From the NCBI RefSeq assembly GCF_009914755.1, contig NC_060935.1: DNA of 64,000 nt; one strand, given 5' to 3'. Every line of letters starts with the position of its first letter. Positions within the stretch are counted from its first letter, which is position 1. Origin of the DNA: the human T2T-CHM13v2.0 reference genome, Homo sapiens. Made by a program: the position numbers and the translations under genes. The notes under the pieces are model-generated. The model searched no databases. It saw only the letters and a list, made by a program, of their open reading frames with translations, and was not told where the DNA came from. This document shows positions 34,728-55,468 of the stretch, one piece after another.

Positions 34728-35064
<337 letters not shown>

Positions 35065-36004
35065 TCATCTGCTAAAATTCTGATTTTCTTCTGTCAAATT
35101 TGGATGATTTTAAAAAACTTTTCTTGCCTAATTGCTCTGGCTAGAACCTTTAAAACGATTTTGAATGAAAGTGGTGAAAGAAAACATCCTTGTCTTATTC
35201 TTGAACTTTGAGGAAAATCTTTCAGTCTTTCCACCTTTGAGTATTAATTAGCGTAGGTTTTTCATATATCGCTGGCCTTTAATATACTGAAGATGTTTTC
35301 TCTATTCTTAGTTTTTTTAGTGGTTTTATTATGAAAGAGTGTGCACTTTTGTCAAATCGCTTTTCTGCACTAATTGAGAAGATCAGGTATTTTTTCATTT
35401 ACACTGTTAATGTGGTGTATTATACTGATTAATTTTAATGTGGTAAATTGTACTATACTTGCATTCCAGGAATAAATTCCACTTGCCATGTGTTTAATTT
35501 TAATGTCTTTTTACATGCTGTTGAGTACAGTTTGTAGTATTCTCTTGAGGAATTTTTGCATCTCTATTTGTAATGAAATTAACAATGAATTTCGAGAATC
35601 ACTGAACTACATATCTAATAAATTAAAAAATAATGCATATCACATTTACTTAAAGAAAAGTCGAACAGGTATTTATATAAGTTGAATAAACATTTGCTAC
35701 CTAAAATGAAGCTCACAGTGCAATGTTATATAAAAAGGATAATATAAAATATAGCTATGATATTTATTATATAAGCTTTGTATCAGATACACACTAATAC
35801 ATACATACACACATGGGAGTGAGAAAACTTGAAATAAAGAAACAATTGAGAGTATTTATCTCTGGATTGTTGCCCAATGGCTGTTTTTTTTTCTTTTGTA
35901 CATTTTTGTATTTTCAGGTATTTTAAATTAAAATATATTGTGTGGTTCAACATATTTAAGTTTATGATGAAATTATTCACCAGTTATTACAAGAAATTAC
36001 ATGC

Positions 36005-36150
36005 AACCAGGATATTACATGGGGCATTGTTTTATGTAATTGCTTTATTTGTGGCCTCTTAGGCAATACTTCAATTATATTCTCTAGGGTTAACATCCCT
36101 AAGGCCTTTGTGGCATATATATTTGTGACACAGTTTGGTGTCAGGATTCA
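36005..36150 (+). promoter_or_regulatory. Putative OR promoter of the OR5D pseudogene
   Basis: Homeodomain-type TAATTG at 36037-42; O/E(EBF)-like TCTCTAGGGT at 36081-90 and TCCCTAAGGC at 36096-105; block conserved with 47985-48120. Confidence 0.55.
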
Positions 36151-36362
36151 GTCTTTTGGTAACATTTTTCTCTCTGTTATCACTGAGTTTATTTGAAAAA
36201 ATCAGGGGAAAAAAGTCATTTTCTTGAAACATTTATTGAAATATATTACAAACTCCTGCCTGCCACTTTTATTGTGATTTGCTTTTTTTTTTTTTTTTTC
36301 AGTTCTCCACAAGAACTTTCCTGGAGTCCGTTAATCTTTGCAAAAGAAGCGTTAGTAAATGA

Positions 36363-36391
36363 ATGAATAAGTCAATTTATTCTGTACTTAA
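36363..36391 (+). pseudogene. OR5D2P: Upstream coding segment of the OR5D pseudogene (MNKSIYSVL-K)
   Basis: ATG AAT AAG TCA ATT TAT TCT GTA CTT AA|GTGAGT; phase 2, in frame with the acceptor at 39089; homologous to 48316-48344. Confidence 0.7.
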
Positions 36392-37324
36392 GTGAGTTAT
36401 TCAATTCTTACTTTATATAACTTTAGAAGGAAAAGAGTGTGTTCCAACAATCTTTGCAGGAGGCAAACCCATATGTAAATCTAACTGCCGTTCCGTTAAC
36501 TAGGAATATTATCTTTCACCATATTTATTATTATTAATTTGCCTGTATTCTTTTTATCACAATATTCTTCTTCTTTTTATGGGCACAAACTTTAGTTTTA
36601 ATAAGTAATAAGAATTGTATGCTATGTTGTATAATTTGCAATTACATGCATTATGCCTCGGAATAATTCTTAGAAAAACAGTTTTGAGGTCAAGGCCAAT
36701 ATTTTATAATTTTACAGTTTCTAAAATGCCTATTACAGTGCTGAGTGCATAGCAAATGCACAATCGGATAGCCATGCTGGGTGTCACTACAAAAGAGGGA
36801 AAGCCTGTGCACGGCACCTTGAGCCCTCATTCAGCTCAAAAAGGGTGACACTTCCTGGGGCTAAATGGGAGATTGTGAACTTTGGCCCCAAGTCTTTCAG
36901 TCAAGAAATAAGAGTGTAGGAAGTGGGTTCAAAAGTGCCACACATAGAAAAGATGTTTGGGTAACAATAAGTCGAATATATATTATAAAATACATATCTT
37001 TGATGGAAATGATTTTCTTTTCAGGCCCAGTCTGCTCAGAGTTTGTTAGAACATCCTTAGGAAAGAATACAGATATTGGAAAATGCTTGAAAAAGTATGT
37101 TCAGTTAGGAAATTTGCACTCAATGAGTTTTGTGTCAAACTAAAACATAAGTTTAGAAAATAACAACAAATGTAGACGGTCAAATCACAGGTGTCAAATG
37201 AAGTGAATTTAAAGGAGCAATTAAAGAAAGAAACTGCATGGATATGTAAGTTGTACATAAAATACTTTTATATGTAACCCTAACCCTAACCTATATAAAA
37301 CCTATATAATTTTCTCTATATATA

Positions 37325-37367: not shown

Positions 37368-39089
37368 TGCATGCACTTATGTTTTCTGCAAAATATAAGT
37401 GCGTGCAGTATATTCTCTTGGAGACTAAACATTGTAACAACTCAGTGTAAACTATAGAGTGCTTAATTTCACCTAATGATAAAGCATAGAATTTTTACAG
37501 AATGCTGTGTGGAATGGTGTTCTTTCTATGCCTACTGCTATTTTAGCTTTCGGTAAGCAGTCATGACATGGTTCTGGATTAAACTGGCACAAAACAGTAA
37601 TTGAGTTATTTTGAATGAACTCAGAACATTTTTTAAAAATCCAATACCTCATTTTCCCTTCTAACTCTCCTTGTTTTATTCTAATTCAAGATGCTTAGGT
37701 CCCATGGGGTTTCACTATAGCTACTTGTTCTGTAGGACTCCAGGTGTGCCTCAGTGCATTGTGAGTTTACAATGTGGTCCTGATTTAATAGGCAAGTCCA
37801 GCTTCTTTAGTATTATTATAAACTTTTACCCCAATACATGTATAATATGTGGCTAGATTTATTCACTCACATATACATTCATTTATTCAATCAAGATTGT
37901 TGAGAATCTACTATGTCCTAGCCTTCCATATTTGCCCTCATTAATATTATTTTATTGTAGAACAACAATTTGTTGAAATGGCAAAGAAGAAAACATGAGT
38001 AAAATATATATTATATTACAGATGTTGCATAATATTGATATTTTTCAGGGTTTATAGTTACTGATAATGACATAACTACTATGACCATGATGAATGAGTC
38101 AAGTTGAGATAAAATTATTGGAAAAGATGAAGAAACTAAAAGTATAGGATATAAGAAAGATTATCTGTGTCTCTATTGTAAGCAATTCAATGCAAACAAA
38201 ACAAAACAAAAATGTCCTAACCAAATAAAAACCATTGTAATTCTTCAGGAAGTGATGTCTCATCTTTGAAGATTTGGAGAACTGAATTTTGACCACCTGA
38301 GAATGTTGTGGCAGAAAGTACTTCAGAATAATAAAAATGATCTGGATGTATTATTATTGTTTGCTCCCAAACCAAATCATTCTAAATATCTGATATTATA
38401 ATATATCAAGAAAAGGAAACAGATTTTTTCAATAATTATATAAATGTGGCTGATCAAGTGCATCATTCACATTATACAGGAAGGATCTGAAATATGTGGA
38501 GATAAATGTGTGATTAAATGTAGGGAGGTCATTGGAAAGGGAAATTCAGAAATAGCTATAGAAACAACTGTTACAAAAATGTAATGATCATTTTACTCCA
38601 TCATTAATTTCCTTTTTAGAGTTCCAAGTTCTCATCATTTAATAGGTGAAGAAGTGAAAAAATTACCGAAACTCAAAATAAGCATTGTATTGAAATGAAA
38701 TAAAATGGAAATGCTTATCTTCCTCCAAGATAAGCGTTTTCACTAAACTCTGACTCATGCAAAAGGTAGACTGGCCCTTCTCGTGAAGCCAGTTGCGTCT
38801 GAGGCTACTGAACCGGATGGTTTAAAATATACCAGAGCCAACGGCACTTTTGTTCTTCCTCTCTCAGTTCCCATATTTTATTATTACATTGACATACATT
38901 TTATATGCACTGTATAATTGTGATATTAGCAAATTCTAGCTTTTGAAACAATGTAATTGTTGAAACTAAGCATATCCATAAGTCTTTTTATAAATAATCA
39001 CTAAACCTCTCAACATTTCCTCATTTTACTTGGCCTTGTCCAAATATTTCTTCTTGAATCTCTGAATCAACTTCCCTATTTTGTCCCAG

Positions 39090-40019
39090 GGACCAAGAAA
39101 ATCAGACTTCTGAAGTCACCTTCATCCTCTTGGGCTTCTCAGAATATCCAGACCTTCAGACGCCCCTGTTCCTGGTGTTCCTGACCATCTACACAGTCAC
39201 TGTGCTGGGGAATCTGGGCATGATCATAGTCATCAGGATCAGCCCCAAACTCCACACCCCCATGTGCTTTTTCCTCAGCCACTTGTCCTTTGTTGATTTC
39301 TGTTATTCCACCACAATTACACCCAAACTGCTGGAGAACTTGGTTGTGGAAGATAGAACTATCTCCTTCACAGGATGCACCATGCAGTTATTCTTTGTCT
39401 GCATATTTGTAGTAACAGAAACATTCATGCTGGCAGTGATGGCCTATGACCGATATGTGGCGGTGTGTAACCCTCTTCTCTACACAGTTGCAATGTACCA
39501 GAGGCTTTGCTCCTTGTTAGTGGCTACATCATACTGTTGGGGGATAGTCTGTTCCCTGACACTTACCTAGTTTCTACTGGAATTATCCTTCAGAGGAAAT
39601 AATATCATTAATAACTTTGTCTGTGAGCACGCTGCCATTGTTGCTGTGTCTTGCTCTGACCCCTGTGTGAGCCAGGAGATCACTTTAGTTTCTGCCACAT
39701 TCAATGAAATAAGCAGCCTGCTTCCTATGCTTTCATTTTTATCACTGTCATGAAGACGCCTTCCACTGGGGGGCGCAAGAAAGCGTTCTCCACGTCTGCC
39801 TCCCACTTGACGGCCATTACCATTTTCCATGGGACTATCCTTTTCCTCTACTGTGTTCCTAACTCCAAAAGTTCGTGGCTCATGGTCAAGGTGGCCTCTG
39901 TCTTTTACACAGTGGTCATTCCCATGCTGAACCCCTTGATCTATAGCCTCAGGAACAAAGATGTAAAAGAGACAGTTAGGAGGTTACTCATTACCAAATT
40001 ATTATGTCTCATATTATAA
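39090..40019 (+). pseudogene. OR5D2P: Olfactory receptor family 5D pseudogene, main exon
   Basis: Acceptor CTTCCCTATTTTGTCCCAG|G; [52 protein letters not shown] at 39568-70, and a 13-bp deletion (GTGATCATTCTCA) at 39720/21 relative to the paralog. Symbol from recalled gene order. Confidence 0.85.
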
Positions 40020-41829
40020 AATCTAGAAGTCGTACTTATTCCTATTGAAGAATATTGTGCAGAACTGCCCAAAAGTTGTAGAATTGCTAACAATCCAAAT
40101 CCCTTTTTCAAACAGTAAAGCAGTGCATGTACTTAATGTAACCCCTACTTAACTGGTTATTTGACATCTGTTCAAATTCTAGTAGATTAGCTAACAAGTA
40201 ACACAGTAATTTAATCTCTAATGATTTAACTTATCATTAAACTCAGAATTTGTCATGTAAAGATTTCTGAGTTAATATACATTACCCTATTGTTGCTCAG
40301 TTAACCTTCTGTTCTTTTTCAGTTGTTGGAGAATGGGCTTGTAGATTTGTTCTGAAAAATTATAGCTTACCATGAAGGAAGATATAGCAAATGCAATACA
40401 GTAAACTAAGACATGTTCAGCACTCAGACACTAAGTTTAAAAGTAATATTTATTTAATTCCACATAGGGCACATTGGTATATTATAAATGTGTATAAGGC
40501 GTAAGTCTGCCCACAAAGTCCAGAATATGGTTTGGTAAAATTGTATTGGTTAACATAAAATTTTATTTGATCATTGTACACAATATATCAAAAAATGAAA
40601 ATAGCCACATATTTTAGAAATAGACATTTTGAAATCTGAATTTGTCATTCACTACAATCTTGATTTTCATATAAGTTATAAATTTGATCCATAACAGAAT
40701 ACCATAAATGTCAGTGATACATAACATTAGGTAATTATTAATTTTTTGTCAATTGATTTGGCAGTCCTGATAGTATCAGCTGGTGCATCTTGGTTAATAT
40801 TATCTAGTCTAACGGGTCTAACGGGAACTCATAGACCTACATAACGATTGAGTAGCTCTGCCTCTGTATCTATGGTCCTCTGAACCATTGGGCTAGCTGG
40901 AGTATTTTCTTCCAGTGTTGATGGGTGAGTCACAAGGGGAAATGTACAACAAAAGCTAGTTCAAGCTTCCATTCGCCTCATGTTTTTTAGCATTATTTTA
41001 GGCAAAGAGAATCACATTGCTGGGCTCAAAGTTAATGACTGAGGAAGGATATCTGCCTCTTATTGTAGAATTGAAAAGTTACGTGGCAAATAATGTAGAT
41101 ACACAGAGGAATGAAGGATTCTGCCTACTATTTCTATATATCTAAATTGTTGGGAAATTTTAGTTAATGGGAAATTATCCTTCTTATTCCAGATAAATTT
41201 TTGTCCTAGTTTGACAAAAGTCTTCTGTAAATTGATGAGAAATTTAATCGACTTAACTAAATGACTGTTTTTGTTGATTGTCACTTGCTGTTGATAGTTA
41301 ATGTTTAAGAGGAAAGACAAAGTCTTGGTAAATTTCCATATATCATGGTTCCTGTATTCCTGACTCTCATGTTCAAATAAAAATGGCAATTTCCTTTGTT
41401 ATAAAGTTTATTATAAAACTATTTAACCTAATCCATTTATCTGATTGTTTAGCAATACATAAAAATATTTTTTAACAAATCATATTATATAACTATAGTA
41501 TTGCATAACTTATTTAACTTCTAATTGTTCATCAAACAGAGGACATATACACTTAAGTAAATGTTCCAGTCAAGTACATTAATAGGTTTTGTGTATGTTA
41601 ACAAAAACATTTTAAGAAAAAAGAAAAATGCATTTAGAGAATGTGAAAACAGTATAAAATGAACTATACTTGGCACATTCTAAAGGTCCTTGGATTTAAA
41701 ATCCTATTTGAAAAAAAAAAGATAGATATTAGGTAAATTATAATTTGTAAACTATAATTAGCTTTCTATATTGTAGGAGAAAACAAAACAATAACTTTGA
41801 AGAAAACGGGTTTATTACAGTAAGATGGC

Positions 41830-45636: not shown

Positions 45637-46090
<454 letters not shown>

Positions 46091-47984
46091 TGACGTCATT
46101 CTTTTGCATGTGGATATCCAGTTTTCCTAACACCATTTGTTGAAGAGACTATCCTTTTTCCCATTATGTATTCTTGGTACATTTGTTAAAGGTTAGATGT
46201 CTGTATGTGTGTGGGTTATGTCTGGGCTTTCTATTCTGCCCAATGGTCTATGTGTCTGTTTATATGCTAGTACAATACTATTTTATTTATTGCAATTTTG
46301 TAATATATTTTGAAATCAGGAAGAGTGATGCCTCCAGCATTTTTCTCTTTTTTTTCTTGTTTCCTTTAGCTGTTTTGATCTTTTGTATGTTTACAAAAAT
46401 TTTAGTTTTCTATTCTATTTTGTAAAAATAGAAAAGAAATCTAGATCTATGTGATTTTAATTGACATTGCATTAAATCATTACATATATTTGAGTAGAAT
46501 TAACATTTTAACATTAAGTTTTCTAATCCATGACCATGGGATGTGAAGCATAAAATTAACAGAAATATGGAAATAATAAATGTTAGGAAAGAAATAAATG
46601 AGATAAGTAATATAAAAAACAATACAATAAATCAATAAAACTCAGGTTTTTAAAAAATATAAACATAATTGGCCAAATAATAGGTGGACCAAGAAAAAAA
46701 AGAGAAGACTCAAATATAATCAGAAATGAAAGAGGAAACATTGCATCTAACCGACCAATGCTATAGAAATTAAGGATCAAAATTGACTACTATAAACAAT
46801 TGTATGCCTAAAAATTGGATGACTTATAAGAGATAAAAAAAAATTTTTAGAAATGTACAAGCTACAATAACTGAATCATGAAGAAATAGAAACTCTGAAC
46901 AGATCAAAGACTAATAACAAGATTGAATCTGTAATCAAAAACCTCCCAACAAAGAAAATGCGGGACAAGACGGTTTCACTTGTGAATTCTACCAAACATA
47001 TAAAAAGTACAAACACTAGTCTTTCTAAAAACATTCCAACAATTAAAGAAGTGAGAACACTTTGAGACTCATTTTATGGAACTGGCATTATGTTGATAAC
47101 AAAGACAGACAAAGATACTACAAGAAAAGGAAACCACAGGCGAATATACTCAATGAACAGATTCCTATTGCTTTTCTATCTGTAGTTCCTTAGTTGTATC
47201 GTGTCTGAGACACCATCAGCTCTTTTGCCCTTGATTTCCCTATGTGCGATATGAGGTCCTCTGCAATGGAACGAGCTTTTTTCTGAAGACACGTTTAAAG
47301 GAGTGTTGCATGATTCCCTCTTCCTCACATGCAAAATACAACTATAACCTCAAATGTACCATGATGATGGCGAAACACAAGTAGAAAGGAACATGAGCCC
47401 CTGCATTACTAACATGTAGCAGAGATGCCCAATGTTTAGGAGTGCATTTTGGACCTGCACTAGTGAGAAATAAGTCTTTATTCTTTAAAAGCATGTTAGA
47501 TAGAGTACCGAAATTAATGGATATATCATCCTTTCCATAAAGTGGCATTTTCCATAAACTGGTTTATTTTTAGAAACATGTAACCCAGTTTTTTCCAGAT
47601 TCAACAGTCAGCATAAACATCTGAAGATCATTTAGCCATATTTAAAAAGGCAAACACAAATTGTTTTCTATTAAAAAAAACAATAGTGTGACTACCAAAT
47701 GAAGTTTGTATTACTAACAAAGGATAAATAAAAGATGTAGCATTATTTAGTCAGCTCTGTATTTCAACATATAATAACATAAATATATCTTCATAAAAAG
47801 AGAAAATAAATTCAACATGAGGTAATGATACCTATCTCTGGACTATTGTTTTATAGCTGATTTTTCCCTTTCACATTTGTATTTTACACCTATGTAAAGT
47901 CAAGATATATTCACTATTACGATTAATTAAGTGAAGTTGGTAAGATAAATGTCAAGGGCTTTAGAAAGGCACTATACAAACAAG

Positions 47985-48120
47985 ATATCACATGGGACAG
48001 TGTTATATCTAATTGCTCAAATGGTAGCCTCCAAGGCAATACTTCAGTGATATTCTCTAGTCACGAGGTCCCCAAGGCCTTGGGGGCAAATATTTGTGAC
48101 ACAGTTTGGTGCTAGGACTT
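47985..48120 (+). promoter_or_regulatory. Putative OR promoter of the intact OR5D locus
   Basis: O/E-like TCACATGGGA at 47988-97; TAATTG at 48010-15; palindrome CCCCAAGGCCTTGGGG at 48070-85; conserved with the paralog. Confidence 0.6.
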
Positions 48121-48315
48121 AGTTTCTAGATGTGACCTTATCTCTGCTATCTATGAGTTTTCTTAATAGGTTGGGTAAAAAAGTAACATTTAAAATCTTC
48201 AAGGAAATATACTCTCGACACTCCTACTGTTGTTTTCAGGTTTGTTTCTATTAATTAAGTGCTAAGCGGGAGCATTATTGGAGTTCGTTAATTTCAGCAA
48301 AAGATCCTTCAGTAA

Positions 48316-48344
48316 ATGAATCACTCAGATGCCTCTGTATTTAG
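48316..48344 (+). CDS. OR5D3P: Predicted first coding segment of the split-CDS OR5D receptor (MNHSDASVF-R)
   Basis: ATG AAT CAC TCA GAT GCC TCT GTA TTT AG|GTGAGT; consensus donor, phase 2, in frame with the acceptor at 50505. Confidence 0.75.
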
Positions 48345-50505
48345 GTGAGTTGATTTAGTTTTTTTAAAATTTTATTTCAGAAGGAAAATACTGAGTTCCG
48401 GTAATCTTAGTACCAGACAAACACACGTGTAGGTTGAAGTGCCCTCAAATCCACTTAGTTCATTCAACAAGCAGAGGACCTATGTTGTTATATCCCGATT
48501 CCTTCTCCCTTTCAAATGATATCAATTCTGATTTTCTCATTCGGCTCCCACCATGTACTCAGCAATGAAATCAATACTTTGGCAGATAAAGAAGAATAAA
48601 GCAAAATTGGCCTTATCTTTAAACTTTCTATACTTTCTGAGGAGATAAGCGAGACTAATAACCAAATCTGTAAATGATAGGATATGGTTTATGGTAACTG
48701 TGAGTTATAAGCACTAATGTTTGCAATATATACAGAGGAGAAGAAACAATGAGTAATCTTTACAAGAGTAGATGGTAAAATAAAGCATTATAAAAGTGAG
48801 AATAGATAGAAAGCAAACTTTATGTAAATGAGCATGTGCTTTATAATAACTTGATACATCTACCATGACTTTGAGAAAAATGTGTTAGTGGTAATGAGAT
48901 TGAGTATCTAGATCTAAGCAGTTTGGGAAAATCCAGTCTGCACAATGCAGTTTTCATGCATTCATCAATAAAAAACATTTGGAATTGTTAAAGTCATTGG
49001 CTCTCAGGTTAAAGTGATTACAGAAAATTATTCTTGCGATGTTGCAAAGGACATTTCAAATTGAGGAGAGTGACTGGGAAATACAGTCATAATCTAGTTT
49101 TATAGTGTTAAGATTTTTATAAATAATTGTTTCAGGGAAATTGCTGAGTAATTGGTCCTTTTGGAAGATATCTTTCCTACAGGCACAAGCTTGTGGGAAC
49201 TAGAGAAAGCTATTGTGTAATGGAAAAACATAAAGGAGAATGGGGAAAATATAGTTATGACTTAGACTAAAGCCACAAATAAAATTCTACAGTACTTCCA
49301 TTTTGTGGGTTCAGGAAACTGATTCTCTGCATTGTATTCACAAATGTGTCCACATGTTGATAGCTGTCCCATATAGGCCTCATTTCAATAACTACTTAAG
49401 GTTTCTGAAACCACACTAATTAGCTATAATTCTAATAAATATAAAAGTGAATATCTAATATGCTTTATACTGTGTTTTATAACCACTACATTCATTAGCA
49501 ATCTTTCTGCTTCCATTCTACTGATTTAAATTTTATATCATGAATATATTATCACATTTTACCATTGAGGAAATGCCTTGTGGCATCAAGGCATATTGAA
49601 AGAATACTATGGTGTCCTGTTTGAGATGGGTCTTCCTGACACTTATTCTTGGCAAAGCTTTAAACTTAAATCAAAAGGACAGAATGCAATTTTCCTAAAA
49701 ACTAATATTTATTTGCAGTACTCAGTACTTTCATGTTTATTATTGTTTGTCACCTACCTGTCTTCTGAGATTTGCCACATCAGAAAATGAAAAACTTTTC
49801 ATTTAAAATTACTTCAACTATTTTATCACTACAGAAACATACATCACATATTTTGTTGCAATAATCTTCTCATAAGTGATATAATACATCATTAAAAATA
49901 ACATGAAAATTTTTTCAAGTTGAGTTCAACATGCATGAGAAAGATTAGCATATTAGTGTAACACAGCTCCAGAATGTGTTGAAAGTATTGGATTATAAGG
50001 AATGAGAAAGGTGTTAAAAATAAAACCACCAATAAACTGTTAAATTTACCATTTTACAGGAATGTTAACATTTTACAATTTGTTAAGAGTTGTAAGTTAA
50101 CTGTCTCAAAGCTTTAGAGGTACAGCAGGAATGAAACTGTAGAAAAGTATATATTTCCTCCAACAGAAATATTTGCACTTATCTCAGATTCATGCAAACT
50201 TAGAGTGGCTCTTCTCATGAAGCCTGCTGTCTTATTATCTGAAATATAGGAAGGTATACCCTGTTTTGTTTTTCCTGTCTTAATTTTGTTTTTTATTATT
50301 CCATTCACAAAATAATCCTATTCACCTTGTAATTTTTATATAAGTACTCTACCTTTTGAAATAATTTGACAGTGGAAACCTAGAATTTTCAGCAACACTC
50401 TTAATAAAGACCCACTAAGTCTCTCAATATTTCTTCCTTTCTGTTTCTTATTGCACATATTGGCTTCTACTTCTCTGGATCAACTTTCTTATTTTTTTCT
50501 CACAG

Positions 50506-51448
50506 GATTCAAAAAAATCAGACTGCTGGAGTCACCTTCATCCTCTTGGGCTTCTCAGAATTTCCAGACCTTCAGATACCCCTGTTCCTGGTCTTCCTGA
50601 CCATCTACACAATCACTGTGATGGGGAATCTGGGCATGATCATGGTCATCAGGATCAACCCCAAACTCCACACCCCTATGTACTTTTTCCTCAGCCACTT
50701 GTCCTTTGTTGATTTCTGTTATTCCACCACAATTACACCAAAACTGCTGGAGAACTTGGTTGTGGAAGACAGAATCATCTCCTTCACAGGATGCATCATG
50801 CAATTCTTCTTTGCCTGTATATTTGTGGTGACAGAAACATTCATGCTGGCAGCGATGGCTTATGACAGATTTGTGGCAGTGTGTAACCCTCTGCTTTACA
50901 CAGTTGCAATGTCCCAGAGGCTTTGCTCCTTGTTAGTGGCTGCATCATACTCTTGGAGTTTAGTTTGTTCCTTAACATACACATATTTTCTGTTGACTTT
51001 ATCTTTTTGTAGGACTAACTTCATTAATAACTTTGTCTGTGAGCACGCTGCCATTGTTGCTGTGTCCTGCTCTGACCCCTACATGAGCCAGAAGGTCATT
51101 TTAGTTTCTGCAACATTCAATGAAATAAGCAGCCTGGTGATCATTCTCACTTCCTATGCTTTCATTTTTATCACTGTCATGAAGATGCCTTCCACTGGGG
51201 GGCGCAAGAAAGCGTTCTCCACGTGTGCCTCCCACCTGACCGCCATTACCATTTTCCATGGGACTATCCTTTTTCTCTACTGTGTTCCTAACTCCAAAAG
51301 TTCATGGCTCATGGTCAAGGTGGCCTCTGTCTTTTACACAGTGGTCATTCCCATGCTGAACCCCTTGATCTATAGCCTCAGGAACAAAGATGTAAAAGAG
51401 ACAGTCAGGAAGTTAGTCATTACCAAATTATTATGTCATAAAATGTAA
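50506..51448 (+). CDS. OR5D3P: Olfactory receptor family 5D, intact 7TM main exon (323 aa when spliced to 48316-48344)
   Basis: Acceptor TTTCTTATTTTTTTCTCACAG|G. Open frame [16 protein letters not shown]...[54 protein letters not shown], ending TAA 51446-48. No in-frame ATG between the upstream TAA (50405) and TM1. Symbol from recalled gene order. Confidence 0.88.
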
Positions 51449-54423
51449 TGCTAGAAATATTAATTATTTATCCTTGAGAGCAGCACTGCAGTTGTTCAAT
51501 AACTAGTCATTGCATGAAATTATGATAACCCTCCAACTGACAGTACAATATCTATTCACACTGATGTTTAGTAAAATAACTTTAAAGTTATAAATACTGT
51601 AAGTATGGAATCTCAGACCATTTAAACTAAATTTTTGATCGAGAATATTGTAATACAAAAGTTTTTGTGTTAGTATACGTTTATTGTGATTGTCCAGGTC
51701 AAATTTCAGTTCAATTTAAATCTTGCAAAATGTAAAAATTTTTGAGATGATCTGAAGAATAGTAGTTTATAATGAGGAAGTTTACCTGATAACATAAAAT
51801 TACTATGATAAGAGCTGTTCAGTATAAAACACTATCTATAAAATAATTACAATTAATTCTGTATGGGCAACTTTGGCATTAGAAGATTTACAGACAAACA
51901 AAAATAAATAAGAAAATTATCTTCCTTACGAAGTCCAGAATCTGGTAAAGTTAAGTTATACTTGGTATTATAAATTATATTTTTCTTTATGCATGATAAT
52001 AAGAAGATGGTAAATATTTTTGCAAATAAATGCCCATCACCCTAGTTCTGCCACTGATGCCAATATGATTGTGCATGTTATTTATTTATTAAAAATTTTA
52101 TTGAGATAATTTTCTATTCATTTTCCTTTGTAAGAAATAATATAGAGGAATTCCAATTATCTTTTAACCAGTTTCCCCCTAAGATAGTACAATATAACAA
52201 CCAGGATAATGATATTGAGATAATACACATACATTATTCAAGCATTAGTTATGTATTGATAAAAGAAATATTCATAAACTCAGTGATATCTAACAGTAAG
52301 CAATCCTTTCAAATAAGTGACTTGACTGGGGTAGCTCTGTTGATATCAGTTCGACCATTTGGGTGTCAAGAATGGGGTAACTAGATCAGCTACCTTTGGA
52401 ACTAGAGACCTGTATGTATGTCATCTTCTTTGGACTCTTTGGCTGATAGTCTTTGTTGAAAGCAGAGCCACAATAGAGTATTCCAAAAATAAAAGCATAC
52501 TTAACGTTCCTGTTTGGGTCTCACCTGTTAACATTTTATGAGTCAGAGAAAATCACGTCCAAGCCCCAAAGCAAGAGTTGAGAAAGTTATCTATTTCTTG
52601 TAGAACTGCAAGATTACAAGTCAAGAGTGATGGGTACAGGGAGAAATGAAAAACTGGGTTCAAAATTGATTGAAACATTTACATCTTTAAACACATTCTT
52701 CCTTGATAATGCCAGATAACTTTACTGCAGAAAACAGATAACCCATGGCTCTAATTGGTTTTAGAGAAGTTTTCAAATAATTGAAATAATTTGATTGCCT
52801 TAACCAAATGGCTGGTTGAGATTAAGTATAAGAACTTACATTTTCTCCTTGTGTCTTGCCAGTCATGATTAAGGCTTACAAGCACAGAATATGAAGTCAA
52901 CCATGTGTTGAAGGTCCAATCCAAGCTGTTAAGTGATACTTGTTTCCCCTCAAGGTTTATCTTTATTTCCAAATAAAAATTCAATAACTTTTTACCTTAA
53001 TGCTTTACACCAACTTACATGTCTATGCAACTTACTGTTTAGGAATATACAACAAAATTCTCAACACTTACAGAATACAGCAAAAGTAACAGAGGATTTA
53101 CTTTAATTTTTAACTGTAGATAATGAGTCATAATTAAATGCTCTAGTCGAGTATTTTTAAAGCTGTGTGTATGTGTGTGCATATGTGTATAGTTTAATAA
53201 AGATGTTAAGGAGCACAAAAAAGGATTTAGAAAGTTTGAGTATGCATCGCAGAATATTTAGTATATTCAATAAGGTTTCCAGGATAAAGTTAGAATATAC
53301 TATTTTTAAATATTGTTTTGGAAGATGTAAGCTGTAATTTGGTAGGTTTCTTTTAGTACAAAATAAAAATCAAAGAAAAAAAGAATAGTTGCTAATCCCT
53401 TTAATACAAGATTTTTTTATTTTGGTAAATGTTCATAAATGGGCAGTTTACACAAATATAATGCAATTTCCCCCCCAAATTCTCAAATTATACTTTCAGT
53501 GTGAAAGCAAACATGTTAACTGTGAAGATAAATACATTTTAGATAATGTAAGTGAGTTTGCTAATGGTCATATTAAGTGATAGCTATGGGCTATTTTTTT
53601 TCTACAAATACATTTGTATGCTGCTCTTCTTTTAAACTTTTGGATACAGTAGGTATAAATGTGACTTTTTTCCCATGGAGGGCTGTGGCAGGACATTTGC
53701 TATCATATGCACAATACTAAAGCAAGTTATATAGTTTAATGCTCACTTCTTAGTGGATTAACAACTATAAAAATTATATCTGGACCATTTTATGTAAATG
53801 TCAACTTTCATATTATGTTGACTAAACAAAGACGGCATCAAAGATTGTATTAGTGTTGGACAAATATATCATTACGTGATTATATTACATAACACTTTGC
53901 TTACGTGAGTGGTTTTTACTGCTATCAAACATAATAGGAAAACAGAGTCCCTATAAAGAAAATGGAAACATATATGATTGATTAAGAAAAGGATAAATAT
54001 TTGATTCAATAGTCAGTATTTCCTGCTTATGGCATTCTCGATACATAGAATATTTAAGCTCAAGGATACCTTGTTGGTAAAAGTTTTCCCCTGAAACTTG
54101 TTGTCATGCAGTTTAAGCACCAGGAAAAAATCCTAAGGAGAGTAAATAACAACAAGCCTGAACCTGTGGATCTGAGAGAACCAAAATTCAGGAAGAATTT
54201 CTGGAGGTAATTCTTGGCTATTTTAGATAACAACTTATAAACAGAATATAGAATACAGCAATACTAATAACAAAGTTTTCACATAAATTTCAACAATATA
54301 TGAAACAAGTTGTATATTATTCTAGGAATTTAAAGTGGATATATCATTTAAATCTCATCAATGAATTTACCATATTAGCAAAATAAGGGAGAAAAGCATA
54401 TGTTTATTTCAATTTATAAAGAT

Positions 54424-55012
54424 ATTTATTCAAATTTATATCTTGTATTAGTCAAAATTCTCCAGAGAAATAGAACCAAGGGGATGGATATCTGCTTAGC
54501 TATATCTATATCTGTCCATAGAGAGGTATTTATTTATTTTAAAGAATTAGCTCATGCGATTATAAAGGCTGACAAATGCTGAGAACTTCAGGGTAAATTA
54601 GCAAGCTGGATCCCAGGGGAGCCAATGATGAAATTCTAGTCTAATTTGGAAGGCCCAAGAACTAGAGAGCCAGGGGTGTATTTCCAGTCAGAAGGTCAAC
54701 AGTTTTGAGACCCATGAAGAGCTGATGTTCCAGTTTCAGTCTATAGGCAAACACCTAATGTCTCAGTTCAAAGGCAGAAAGAGGAAAGAATTTTCCTTTG
54801 CTTGGGAGAGAAGTAGCCTTTTGTTAGACTCAGGCATTTACTGATGGACGCGTCCCATCCCCATTAGCAAAGGCAATCTACTTTACTTAGGCTACTGATT
54901 GATTTAGTTGTTAATCTCATCCAAAAACACCCTTATAAAAACATCCATAATAATGTTTGACTGAATATCTGGGCACCCTGTGGCCCAGTTAATTGATGCA
55001 TACAATTAACTT
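54424..55012 (-). mobile_element. ERVL LTR (MLT2-like)
   Basis: TGTATTAGTCAAAATTCTCCAGAGAAATAGAACCA...ATATCTGGGCACCCTGTGGCCCAG. Confidence 0.8.
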
Positions 55013-55141
55013 TTATGCACTTGTTCATAATAAAACAAAACAGAAGAAAACAAAAGCTCCCAGAAAAATAGAAATAGAAATGTCTTAATCTTTTACCTAC
55101 CAAATCTGTAGGTAAATATCACAATTAAGGTTAAAATAATC

Positions 55142-55468
55142 GGCTAGGTGCAGTGGCTCCTGCCTGTAATCCCAGCAATTTGGGAGGCCGAGGTGGGCGG
55201 ATCACAAAGTCGGGAGATTGAGACCATCCTGGCCAACATGGCAAAACTCCGTCTCTACTAAAAATACAAAAATTAGCTGGGCGTGGTGGTGTGTGCTTGT
55301 GATACCAGCTGCTCAGGAGGCTGAAGCAGGAGAATGGCTTGAACCAGGGAGTTGGAGGTTTCAGTGAGCCGAGATCGCACCACTGCACTCCAGCCTGGAG
55401 ACAGAGTGAGACTCTGTCTCAAAAAAAAGCAAAACAAAATGAAAAAACAACAAAAAAGAGAAAAGAAA
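55142..55468 (+). mobile_element. AluSc-like
   Basis: Full dimer with A-rich tail; AAATAAT on both flanks. Confidence 0.9.

What the first reader, a model, noticed from the sequence alone, without database searches (positions are those of the whole stretch)
48316..51448. Start-less OR 'pseudogene' completed by an upstream coding micro-segment: a two-exon 323-aa receptor
Seen: the 7TM frame 50506-51448 is fully open, with all hallmark OR motifs and the four conserved extracellular cysteines. It has no in-frame ATG before the end of TM1 (first ATG 50621; upstream in-frame TAA 50405). It is preceded immediately by a strong acceptor (pyrimidine tract + CAG, 50505). About 2.16 kb upstream, ATG 48316 reads 9 codons + AG into a consensus donor GTGAGT (48345-50). 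The join AG|G = Arg is in frame and gives [26 protein letters not shown]..., 29+943 = 972 nt. Established: OR CDSs are normally single-exon, but a minority with split CDSs has been reported by manual curation. This locus may already be re-annotated as coding, so novelty needs checking. Inference: this is a functional receptor missed by single-exon ORF rules.
Basis: partly seen in the sequence, partly recalled or inferred. Interest (0 to 1): 0.85.

Follow-up and report, generated by a model that had tools for sequence, protein, structure and literature searches.

The report
OR5D3: known two-exon olfactory receptor

Summary
ATG 48316 opens 29 coding bases that end at donor TAG|GTGAGT. The acceptor is a 17-of-20 pyrimidine tract followed by CAG|G at 50505/50506. 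The frame 50507-51448 is open and a strong Pfam olfactory-receptor match. It has no in-frame ATG between TAA 50405 and ATG 50621.

The inferred model is base-for-base the RefSeq 'select' mRNA NM_001396059.1 of OR5D3, annotated protein-coding. The class, pseudogene-looking ORs completed by an upstream exon, was published by Barnes et al. 2020 (13 human cases). A 2009 abstract on 'OR5D3P' activity is cited in a review.

Sequence alone was weak evidence: 16 of 56 GTRAGT sites in the window have an open, phase-matched ATG upstream. Conservation is what supports the model. Of the 120 closest database proteins, 32, from eight mammalian orders, start with a homologous 10-residue peptide of the same length. 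The neighbouring pseudogene OR5D2P keeps the ATG, the 29-base length, the GTGAGT donor and the CAG|G acceptor.

The most likely origin is relocation of the start codon into a former 5'UTR exon. That is inference.

Verdict: real, correctly read, already known, low interest.

The parts
48066..48344 (+). OR5D3 exon 1: 250-nt 5'UTR plus the 29-nt coding micro-segment
   Evidence: RefSeq NM_001396059.1 exon; sequence. It holds two upstream ATGs, at 48130 (ATG-TGA) and 48153 (33-aa uORF).
48316..48344 (+). Micro-CDS: start codon, 8 further codons and the first two bases (AG) of a split Arg codon. It includes an NHS sequon at residues 2-4.
   Evidence: The start context is tAA-ATG-A, with T at -3 and A at +4, which is a weak match to the Kozak rule (rule recalled). 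An out-of-frame ATG lies at 48329.
48345..50505 (+). Intron of 2,161 nt, phase 2, interrupting the extracellular N-terminal tail
   Evidence: No masked repeat of 100 nt or more lies inside it. Its length is typical of the last 5'UTR intron of chr11 OR genes, whose median is 2,679 nt.
48345..48350 (+). Splice donor GTGAGT
   Evidence: It is 1 of 3 GTRAGT sites in the 5 kb upstream of the acceptor and the only one with a phase-matched open ATG. The same hexamer is kept at 36392 in OR5D2P.
50483..50505 (+). Polypyrimidine tract (17 of 20 Y) and the CAG acceptor
   Evidence: This stretch aligns with the place where the five OR5D paralogues with an in-exon start (OR5D13, 14, 16, 18 and OR5D15P) have their ATG.
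50506..51448 (+). Main coding exon part: third base of the Arg codon, 313 codons of 7TM receptor and the stop
   Evidence: open frame; 7tm_4 E 2.5e-49, 7tm_1 E 6.2e-31; motifs, cysteines, hydrophobic peaks.
51449..53911 (+). Annotated 3'UTR of 2,463 nt
   Evidence: No AATAAA or ATTAAA lies within about 500 nt of the annotated end; the last AATAAA is at 53362.
48070..48111 (+). Elements at the annotated transcription start: a perfect 16-nt palindrome (48070-48085) and a 22-nt block (48090-48111) found unchanged in the OR5D2P unit at 36119
   Evidence: The surrounding non-coding sequence is only about 68% identical between the two units. A promoter role is inference.
36363..36397 (+). Comparator: the OR5D2P counterpart of the micro-CDS (ATG 36363, 29 nt, reads MNKSIYSVL plus AA) and its GTGAGT donor at 36392
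   Evidence: It lies outside the RefSeq OR5D2P feature (39289-39925).
39090..40019 (+). Comparator: the OR5D2P main-exon counterpart. It follows a CAG|G acceptor at 39089/39090 and is broken by one in-frame TAG and a 13-nt deletion.
   Evidence: It is 91.0% identical to the OR5D3 main CDS (846 of 930 aligned positions).

Best explanation
The locus is OR5D3, a class A GPCR of the olfactory-receptor family whose coding sequence is split over two exons.

Transcription starts near 48066. Exon 1 supplies the 5'UTR, the initiator ATG (48316) and nine and two-thirds codons. A 2,161-nt phase-2 intron is removed between GTGAGT (48345) and CAG|G (50505/50506). Exon 2 supplies the rest of the extracellular tail, with its NQT glycosylation sequon, all seven helices and the C-terminus. 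The product is 323 aa. Without the splice there is no usable start, because the first in-frame ATG of exon 2 lies inside TM1.

How it arose is inference. OR genes usually have a 5'UTR intron whose acceptor lies a few tens of bases before the ATG. In the ancestor of the OR5D3/OR5D2 clade the in-exon ATG was lost. The acceptor came to lie just downstream of where that ATG had been, and an in-frame ATG in the former non-coding exon took over. So a pre-existing UTR intron became a coding intron; no intron was inserted into an ORF.

Shown here: the sequence anatomy, its identity to the curated model, family membership, and conservation of the start, length and phase. Inferred: use of the junction in human olfactory neurons, translation, odorant response, and the evolutionary route.
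For: - Anatomy.
- The model is identical to RefSeq 'select' NM_001396059.1.
- Pfam 7tm_4 E 2.5e-49.
- Of the 120 best of 7,289 homologues at E<=1e-60, 33 begin with Met exactly 10 residues before the junction. Of these, 32 carry a peptide homologous to the human one, with 4-9 of 10 residues identical. By my assignment from the species names, they come from primates, rodents, lagomorphs, a tree shrew, artiodactyls, bats, a sirenian and proboscideans.
- A mouse protein of 320 aa has the same start.
- Another 19 models read 'HR' straight through the acceptor, so the ...CAC AG|G sequence is conserved as well.
- In a tree, the 115 kept database homologues other than P0001 and P0002, together with human OR5D3, form one group apart from human OR5D13/14/16/18 (SH-aLRT 94, below the star threshold). 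The micro-exon type is scattered throughout that group.
- The tandem paralogue OR5D2P keeps the ATG, the 29-nt length, the GTGAGT donor and the CAG|G acceptor in flanks that are only 68-70% identical.
- dN/dS between the OR5D3 and OR5D2P main exons is 0.34.
- Route: the five paralogues with an in-exon start have their ATG exactly 18 nt before the Asn codon of the shared sequon. In OR5D3 that spot lies in the last bases of the intron.
- In 70 chr11 OR genes with an annotated 5'UTR intron, the acceptor lies a median of 32 nt before the ATG (34 of 70 within 30 nt). That intron has a median length of 2,679 nt.
- Literature: Barnes et al. 2020, PMC7055050, of which I read the abstract and sections 7, 10 and 16. 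It describes exactly this class, with 13 human loci and 7 pseudogene-to-coding changes.
- A review table lists OR5D3P with raspberry ketone and cites a 2009 abstract.
Against: - I saw no RNA reads, so junction use in human tissue rests on the curated record.
- The ATG context is weak (T at -3, A at +4). Two upstream ATGs precede it, and an out-of-frame ATG lies inside the micro-CDS. Translation could therefore be inefficient.
- The pattern is not improbable by chance.
- Only 32 of 120 database models show the micro-exon. 65 have other N-termini and 4 could not be placed.
- Automated models can be seeded by homology to human or mouse records. They prove that the ATG, frame and splice sites exist in those genomes, but not that they are used.
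- 'OR5D' does not occur in the main text of Barnes et al.. The list of the 13 loci is in a supplement I could not open.
- The clade support (94) is below the tool's star threshold, and the tree used the quick method.
- Exon 1 shows no detectable homology upstream of the single-exon paralogues, so the 'former UTR exon' step is untested.
- The alignment upstream of the sequon is gappy.
Confidence: 0.93

Rival explanations
1. The locus is transcribed and spliced as annotated but is poorly translated or not translated. It would then be in effect a non-functional or regulatory transcript, a receptor on its way to becoming a pseudogene in humans.
For: The start context is weak (tAA-ATG-A). There are two upstream ATGs, at 48130 and 48153, and an out-of-frame ATG at 48329. 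The sister copy OR5D2P is already dead. About half of human OR loci are pseudogenes: 457 of 845 OR-named genes are annotated as pseudogene or transcribed pseudogene.
Against: The frame is intact over 323 codons with every family motif present. The human protein is 94-95% identical to an Old World monkey orthologue. Barnes et al. report uORFs in 54.6% of human protein-coding ORs, so uATGs are ordinary. They also report split ORs expressed like coding ORs. A review lists an agonist.
Confidence: 0.05
2. The locus is a start-less pseudogene, and the upstream ATG with its donor is a chance in-frame combination that annotation has over-interpreted.
For: 16 of 56 GTRAGT sites in the window have an open phase-2 ATG upstream. 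A candidate within 5 kb is therefore expected by chance more often than not.
Against: The same 10-residue start, at the same distance from the junction, occurs in 32 proteins from eight mammalian orders and in mouse. OR5D2P keeps the ATG, the 29 nt, the donor and the acceptor although its flanks are only 68-70% identical. The curated RefSeq 'select' record uses this model.
Confidence: 0.015
3. The protein starts on an unspliced, single-exon transcript, by read-through of the acceptor region. Several automated models in other species are built that way.
For: 19 of 120 database models read through the acceptor ('...HR' before the junction). A few of them start with Met just upstream, for example in camel and musk deer.
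Against: In human the frame upstream of 50506 holds no ATG back to the TAA at 50405. The ORF listing finds only a TTG-initiated ORF starting at 50546. The read-through peptides are what one gets by translating a conserved branch-point, pyrimidine-tract and CAG signal.
Confidence: 0.005

Closest known systems
Split olfactory-receptor genes, class 1 of Barnes et al. 2020 (BMC Genomics 21:196, PMC7055050)
   Same: The main exon lacks a conserved initiator ATG or N-terminus, so the locus was formerly typed as a pseudogene. The ATG is recovered from the adjacent upstream exon. The intron lies in the extracellular N-terminal tail, as in 12 of their 13 human cases. The intron length of 2,161 nt is within their human range of 1,384-7,585 nt. 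The Met and junction are conserved in mammals.
   Different: Nothing structural differs. I could not confirm that OR5D3 is one of their 13, because the list is in Supplementary File 3, which is closed, and 'OR5D' has 0 hits in the main text. They speak of intron insertion events. My reading for this locus is that a pre-existing 5'UTR intron was co-opted.
Mouse Olfr1174-ps, Olfr1175-ps and Olfr1177-ps (Fig. 5a legend of Barnes et al.)
   Same: They were pseudogene-typed for lack of an iATG, have the iATG in the upstream exon, and give an ORF of about 320 aa. A mouse protein of 320 aa in the OR5D3 clade starts with the homologous 10-residue peptide.
   Different: That these three loci are the mouse counterparts of OR5D3 is my guess from length and family. 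The database name of the mouse protein gives no Olfr number.
Other chr11 ORs with a two-part CDS in RefSeq: OR51C1, OR56B2, OR10AG1
   Same: Together with OR5D3 they make 4 of 170 'select' OR mRNAs on chr11 with a very short first coding part. The first parts are 9, 1, 29 and 16 nt.
   Different: They belong to different OR families at independent loci. OR5D3 has the longest first part of the four.
Human OR5D13, OR5D14, OR5D16, OR5D18 (single-exon CDS paralogues)
   Same: Same subfamily and the same gene cluster. The main exon is 71-77% identical in DNA. The N-glycosylation sequon is shared and the 7TM body is collinear.
   Different: They start at an in-exon ATG 18 nt before the sequon Asn codon. 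Their N-terminal tail is about 7 residues shorter: the FxLLGF anchor sits at index 12-13 against 20.
OR5D2P, the tandem neighbour in the same window
   Same: The whole two-exon unit is duplicated: promoter-proximal block, ATG, 29-nt micro-CDS, GTGAGT donor, CAG|G acceptor and main exon.
   Different: It is broken by an in-frame TAG and a 13-nt deletion. RefSeq annotates only 39289-39925.

Membership tests
Olfactory receptor (class A GPCR, Pfam 7tm_4) | Significant match to the OR family profile over its full length | tested here: met
   7tm_4 E 2.5e-49 and 169 bits against a cut-off of 27, over profile positions 2-279 of 280. 7tm_1 E 6.2e-31.
Olfactory receptor (class A GPCR, Pfam 7tm_4) | Hallmark sequence blocks (TM2 PMY..L..LS..D, TM3 MAYDR, TM6 KAFSTC.SH, TM7 PMLNP.IYSLRN), ECL2 cysteines and an N-terminal NxS/T sequon. 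The list of hallmarks is recalled from general knowledge. | tested here: met
   All blocks were found at residues 67, 127, 245 and 292. Cysteines are at 106, 178, 188 and 198. NQT is at residue 14, and NHS at residues 2-4 in exon 1.
Olfactory receptor (class A GPCR, Pfam 7tm_4) | Intact ORF of about 300-330 aa with a usable start | tested here: met
   323 aa, but only when the two exons are joined. Exon 2 alone has no ATG before TM1.
Olfactory receptor (class A GPCR, Pfam 7tm_4) | Expression in olfactory sensory neurons and response to an odorant | not testable with these tools
A review lists OR5D3P with raspberry ketone and cites a 2009 meeting abstract. I saw only the reference and the table row.
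Split OR gene (Barnes et al. 2020) | [quoted passage not shown] | tested here: met
   The first in-frame ATG of exon 2 is at 50621, which is residue 49 and lies in TM1. It would give 275 aa.
Split OR gene (Barnes et al. 2020) | Initiator Met at the same relative position in orthologues | tested here: met
   33 of 120 top homologues start exactly 10 residues before the junction, and 32 of them carry a homologous peptide. A mouse protein does too. The other 87 models have different or unplaceable N-termini, as expected of automated prediction. Rows with identical cores carry different N-termini.
Split OR gene (Barnes et al. 2020) | Splice junction conserved in orthologues or closest paralogues | tested here: met
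   The paralogue OR5D2P keeps GTGAGT and CAG|G in the same phase. 19 models in other mammals read '...HR' through a conserved CAC AG|G. Orthologue DNA itself could not be fetched.
Split OR gene (Barnes et al. 2020) | Transcript evidence for the junction | not testable with these tools
   I rely on the curated RefSeq NM_ 'select' record with this junction. No reads were available.
Split OR gene (Barnes et al. 2020) | Listed among the 13 human loci of the paper | not testable with these tools
   The list is in Supplementary File 3, and supplements are closed. The main text has 0 occurrences of 'OR5D'.

The most novel reading that the evidence does not exclude
The coding intron of OR5D3 was not inserted into an ORF. 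It is the ordinary 5'UTR intron of an OR gene, and it became coding once, before the placental radiation. The in-exon ATG was overwritten by what is now the 3' splice signal, and an ATG in the non-coding exon took over.

The whole mammalian OR5D3/OR5D2-like clade would then share this architecture, and most automated protein models for it in public databases (87 of the 120 nearest) would carry wrong or incomplete N-termini.

In the human pair OR5D3/OR5D2P the main exon also looks about twice as young as its flanks. Synonymous distance is 0.20, against about 0.40 for the non-coding flanks (my Jukes-Cantor conversion of 68-70% identity). That would fit gene conversion confined to the coding exon.
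Probability: 0.45. Interest if true: 0.25.

Novelty: already known. Interest (0 to 1): 0.1.

Why it matters
For the scan, this is a good calibration case. A reader with no tools reconstructed, to the base, a curated two-exon model of a gene long named as a pseudogene (OR5D3P). For biology it adds nothing new about the locus, because the model is in RefSeq and the class was published in 2020.

Two points are of modest practical value.

- Single-exon ORF rules still mislead. 87 of the 120 nearest database models in other mammals lack the conserved start. RefSeq also annotates only part of the neighbouring pseudogene OR5D2P.
- The comparison with paralogues gives a concrete, testable route by which split OR genes can arise from the usual 5'UTR intron.

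Tried and rejected
- Genome-wide DNA search with exon 1 (191 nt) found only the locus itself. A more sensitive local blastn was needed to find the OR5D2P copy.
- I looked for exon-1 homology in the 8-10 kb upstream of OR5D17P, OR5D13, OR5D15P, OR5D14, OR5D18 and OR5D16. Only short, low-complexity chance hits appeared, the best at E 0.01 over 20 nt. The idea that exon 1 descends from a shared 5'UTR exon could therefore not be tested.
- The 16-nt palindrome and the 22-nt block at the transcription start were searched with up to 3 and 5 mismatches respectively in the window and six paralogue loci. They occur only in the OR5D3 and OR5D2P units.
- I considered two 'flavours' of the micro-exon peptide (H at residue 3 and A at 6, against K at 3 and S at 6) as markers of an ancient OR5D3/OR5D2 split. 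I rejected this as too thin, since it rests on two positions in ten residues with intermediates in rabbits and elephants. The main-exon tree groups rows by taxon.
- dN/dS on orthologues was not possible, because only proteins of other mammals are reachable, not their CDS. The only codon-level figure is OR5D3 against OR5D2P.
- No structure prediction was run. Family membership is already unambiguous.
- The second homologue search aimed to tie the mouse loci of Barnes' Fig. 5a to this clade. It returned a mouse protein with the same start, but no Olfr name, so the link stays a guess.
- Paper searches: 'OR5D3' gave 3 papers and 'OR5D3P' gave 2. None discusses the gene structure. One of the three hits is the mouse gene Or5d39, matched by word start.
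Full report
**What is in the sequence.**
- The window has ATG at 48316. It reads MNHSDASVF and then AG, and it is followed directly by GTGAGT at 48345-48350. The donor 9-mer is TAGGTGAGT.
- At 50483-50505 there is a tract with 17 of 20 pyrimidines, then CAG. The next base, G at 50506, completes an Arg codon.
- From 50507 the frame reads IQKNQT... for 313 codons, to a stop at 51446-51448.
- Upstream of 50506 the same frame has no ATG back to TAA at 50405. The first in-frame ATG downstream is at 50621, inside the first transmembrane helix.
- Joining 29 and 943 nt gives a 323-codon ORF. The intron is 2,161 nt.
- No other ORF of 80 aa or more lies at 47000-54500, apart from a short antisense one inside the receptor frame.
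- Every coordinate in the finding is right.

**What it is.**
- The 313-residue part matches Pfam 7tm_4 (olfactory receptor) at E 2.5e-49 over almost the whole profile. It matches 7tm_1 at E 6.2e-31.
- The usual OR sequence blocks, the extracellular cysteines and an NQT sequon at residue 14 are present. Exon 1 adds an NHS sequon at residues 2-4.
- The annotation file for the chromosome holds one transcript here, NM_001396059.1, gene OR5D3, source 'select'. Its exons are 48066-48344 and 50506-53911, and its CDS is 48316-48344 plus 50506-51448.
- On chr11, 4 of 170 'select' OR mRNAs have a two-part CDS: OR51C1, OR56B2, OR5D3 and OR10AG1.

**Is the pattern more than chance?** On its own, no.
- In the 5 kb before the acceptor there are 3 GTRAGT sites. 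One of them, this one, has an open ATG in the required phase. With any GT as donor, 54 of 248 sites qualify.
- Across the window, 16 of 56 GTRAGT sites on the two strands have such an ATG. From that rate I estimate that a candidate would appear by chance in about six of ten stretches like this.

**Conservation across mammals.**
- A protein search with the main-exon translation gave 7,289 hits at E<=1e-60, of which the best 120 were listed.
- 33 of those 120 start with Met exactly ten residues before the junction. 32 of them carry a peptide clearly homologous to the human one, with 4-9 of 10 residues identical.
- By the species names (order assignment is mine), the 32 come from primates, rodents, lagomorphs, a tree shrew, pig and hippopotamus, bats, a manatee and elephants.
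- A mouse protein of 320 aa found with a hamster query has the same start.
- Nineteen further models read '...HR' straight through the acceptor. They are translations of a conserved CAC AG|G and of the tract before it.
- 65 models have other N-termini and 4 could not be anchored.
- Rows with identical cores carry different predicted N-termini. Much of this spread therefore comes from gene prediction, not from biology.
- One caveat: automated models show that the ATG, frame and splice sites exist in those genomes, not that they are used.
- I built a quick maximum-likelihood tree of the receptor cores. It had 116 of the 120 proteins (the 4 unanchored ones were dropped), human OR5D3 and four human paralogues.
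- In that tree, 114 of the 116 database proteins (all but P0001 and P0002) group with human OR5D3 and apart from OR5D13/14/16/18. Support is SH-aLRT 94, below the tool's star threshold. Micro-exon starts are spread through the whole group.

**An internal control: OR5D2P.**
- Sensitive local blastn found a second, diverged copy of the whole unit 12 kb upstream in the window. 47974-48431 matches 36001-36477 at 68%, and 50155-51468 matches 38720-40040.
- This is OR5D2P, which RefSeq marks only at 39289-39925.
- It keeps an ATG (36363), exactly 29 coding bases, GTGAGT (36392) and a CAG|G acceptor (39089/39090) in the same phase.
- Its main exon is broken by an in-frame TAG and a 13-nt deletion.
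- Segment identities are 79% for the 5' flank, 67.5% for the 5'UTR, 69% for the micro-CDS, 70% and 69% for the two intron ends, and 91.0% for the main CDS.
- Nei-Gojobori counts over 307 codons give dS 0.20, dN 0.068 and a ratio of 0.34. Both copies were therefore under constraint for most of their separate history.

**How the split probably arose (inference).**
- I aligned the region before the shared sequon in eight human OR5D genes. The five with an in-exon start (OR5D13, 14, 16, 18 and OR5D15P) have their ATG exactly 18 nt before the Asn codon.
- In OR5D3 and OR5D2P that position falls in the last bases of the intron, or in its pyrimidine tract in the gapped alignment. There is no ATG there.
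- Among 70 chr11 OR genes with an annotated 5'UTR intron, the acceptor lies a median of 32 nt before the ATG, and within 30 nt in 34 of them. That intron has a median length of 2,679 nt, close to the 2,161 nt here.
- Barnes et al. likewise found no length difference between coding introns of split ORs and the last intron of ordinary ORs.
- The simplest reading is that a pre-existing UTR intron became a coding intron when the start moved to the upstream exon.
- I could not test the step that exon 1 descends from a shared non-coding exon. No homology to it is detectable upstream of the other paralogues.

**What is in print.**
- Barnes et al. [quoted passage not shown] In 12 of their 13 human genes the intron lies in the N-terminal domain or TM1. 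Human introns measure 1,384-7,585 bp. Seven human loci moved from pseudogene to coding.
- The paper's main text does not name OR5D3. The RefSeq record settles the status independently.
- A 2021 review (PMC8402194; passages only) lists 'OR5D3P' with raspberry ketone. [quoted passage not shown] I did not see the abstract itself.
- A 2026 GWAS paper still uses the name OR5D3P for the nearest gene of a locus.
- The searches for 'OR5D3' (3 papers) and 'OR5D3P' (2 papers) found nothing else.

**Points against, or left open.**
- The start context is weak, with T at -3 and A at +4. Exon 1 has two upstream ATGs, at 48130 followed at once by TGA and at 48153 opening a 33-aa uORF. An out-of-frame ATG at 48329 lies within the micro-CDS.
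- Barnes et al. note uORFs in 54.6% of human coding ORs, so this is ordinary. It does leave room for poor translation.
- I saw no reads, no proteomic data and no population data.
- The annotated 3' end (53911) has no AATAAA or ATTAAA within about 500 nt.

**Verdict.** The locus is the known, curated two-exon gene OR5D3, a member of a published class. It is of low interest as a discovery, and it is a clean positive control for the first-stage reader.

Noticed in passing
window 36001-36477 and 38720-40040: OR5D2P is a diverged tandem copy of the whole two-exon OR5D3 unit. It keeps the ATG (36363), the 29-nt micro-CDS, the GTGAGT donor (36392) and the CAG|G acceptor (39089/39090). RefSeq annotates only 39289-39925, which is a part of the main exon. 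The body is broken by one in-frame TAG and a 13-nt deletion.
   Followed up: yes
window 50506-51448 against 39090-40019, with their flanks: The main coding exons of OR5D3 and OR5D2P are 91% identical with dS 0.20. All flanking non-coding segments are 68-70% identical, about 0.40 by my Jukes-Cantor conversion. The middle of the intron has no detectable homology. The coding exon looks younger than its surroundings, which would fit gene conversion limited to the exon.
   Followed up: partly
window 48070-48111, and 36097-36140: Right at the annotated transcription start there is a perfect 16-nt palindrome (48070-48085) followed by a 22-nt block (48090-48111). The block is 100% identical in the OR5D2P unit (36119), inside sequence that is otherwise about 68% identical. 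The palindrome has 3 mismatches there. From recall, the palindrome is reminiscent of the dimeric O/E (EBF)-type sites of OR promoters. This was not tested.
   Followed up: partly
window 48130, 48153, 48316, 48329: The OR5D3 5'UTR has an ATG-TGA minimal uORF and a 33-aa uORF. The annotated start has T at -3 and A at +4. An out-of-frame ATG inside the micro-CDS opens a 36-aa ORF across the junction.
   Followed up: partly
window 53362-53911: The annotated 3' end of OR5D3 (53911) has no AATAAA or ATTAAA within about 500 nt upstream. The hexamers in the 3'UTR lie at 51903-53362. The real poly(A) site or sites may differ from the annotated end.
   Followed up: no
proteins P0001-P0120: 87 of the 120 nearest database models of the OR5D3/OR5D2-like clade in other mammals do not start with the conserved 10-residue peptide. 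19 of them read through the acceptor, and several have long, unrelated N-terminal extensions (lengths up to 504 aa). Models with identical receptor cores carry different N-termini. This looks like systematic mis-annotation of the start in this clade.
   Followed up: partly
window 45780-46080, 55140-55447 and 34751-35063: Three segments of about 300 nt, 78-84% identical to each other, one pair in inverted orientation. One lies in a masked repeat (45765-46160). They are probably copies of a common interspersed repeat. I did not classify them.
   Followed up: no
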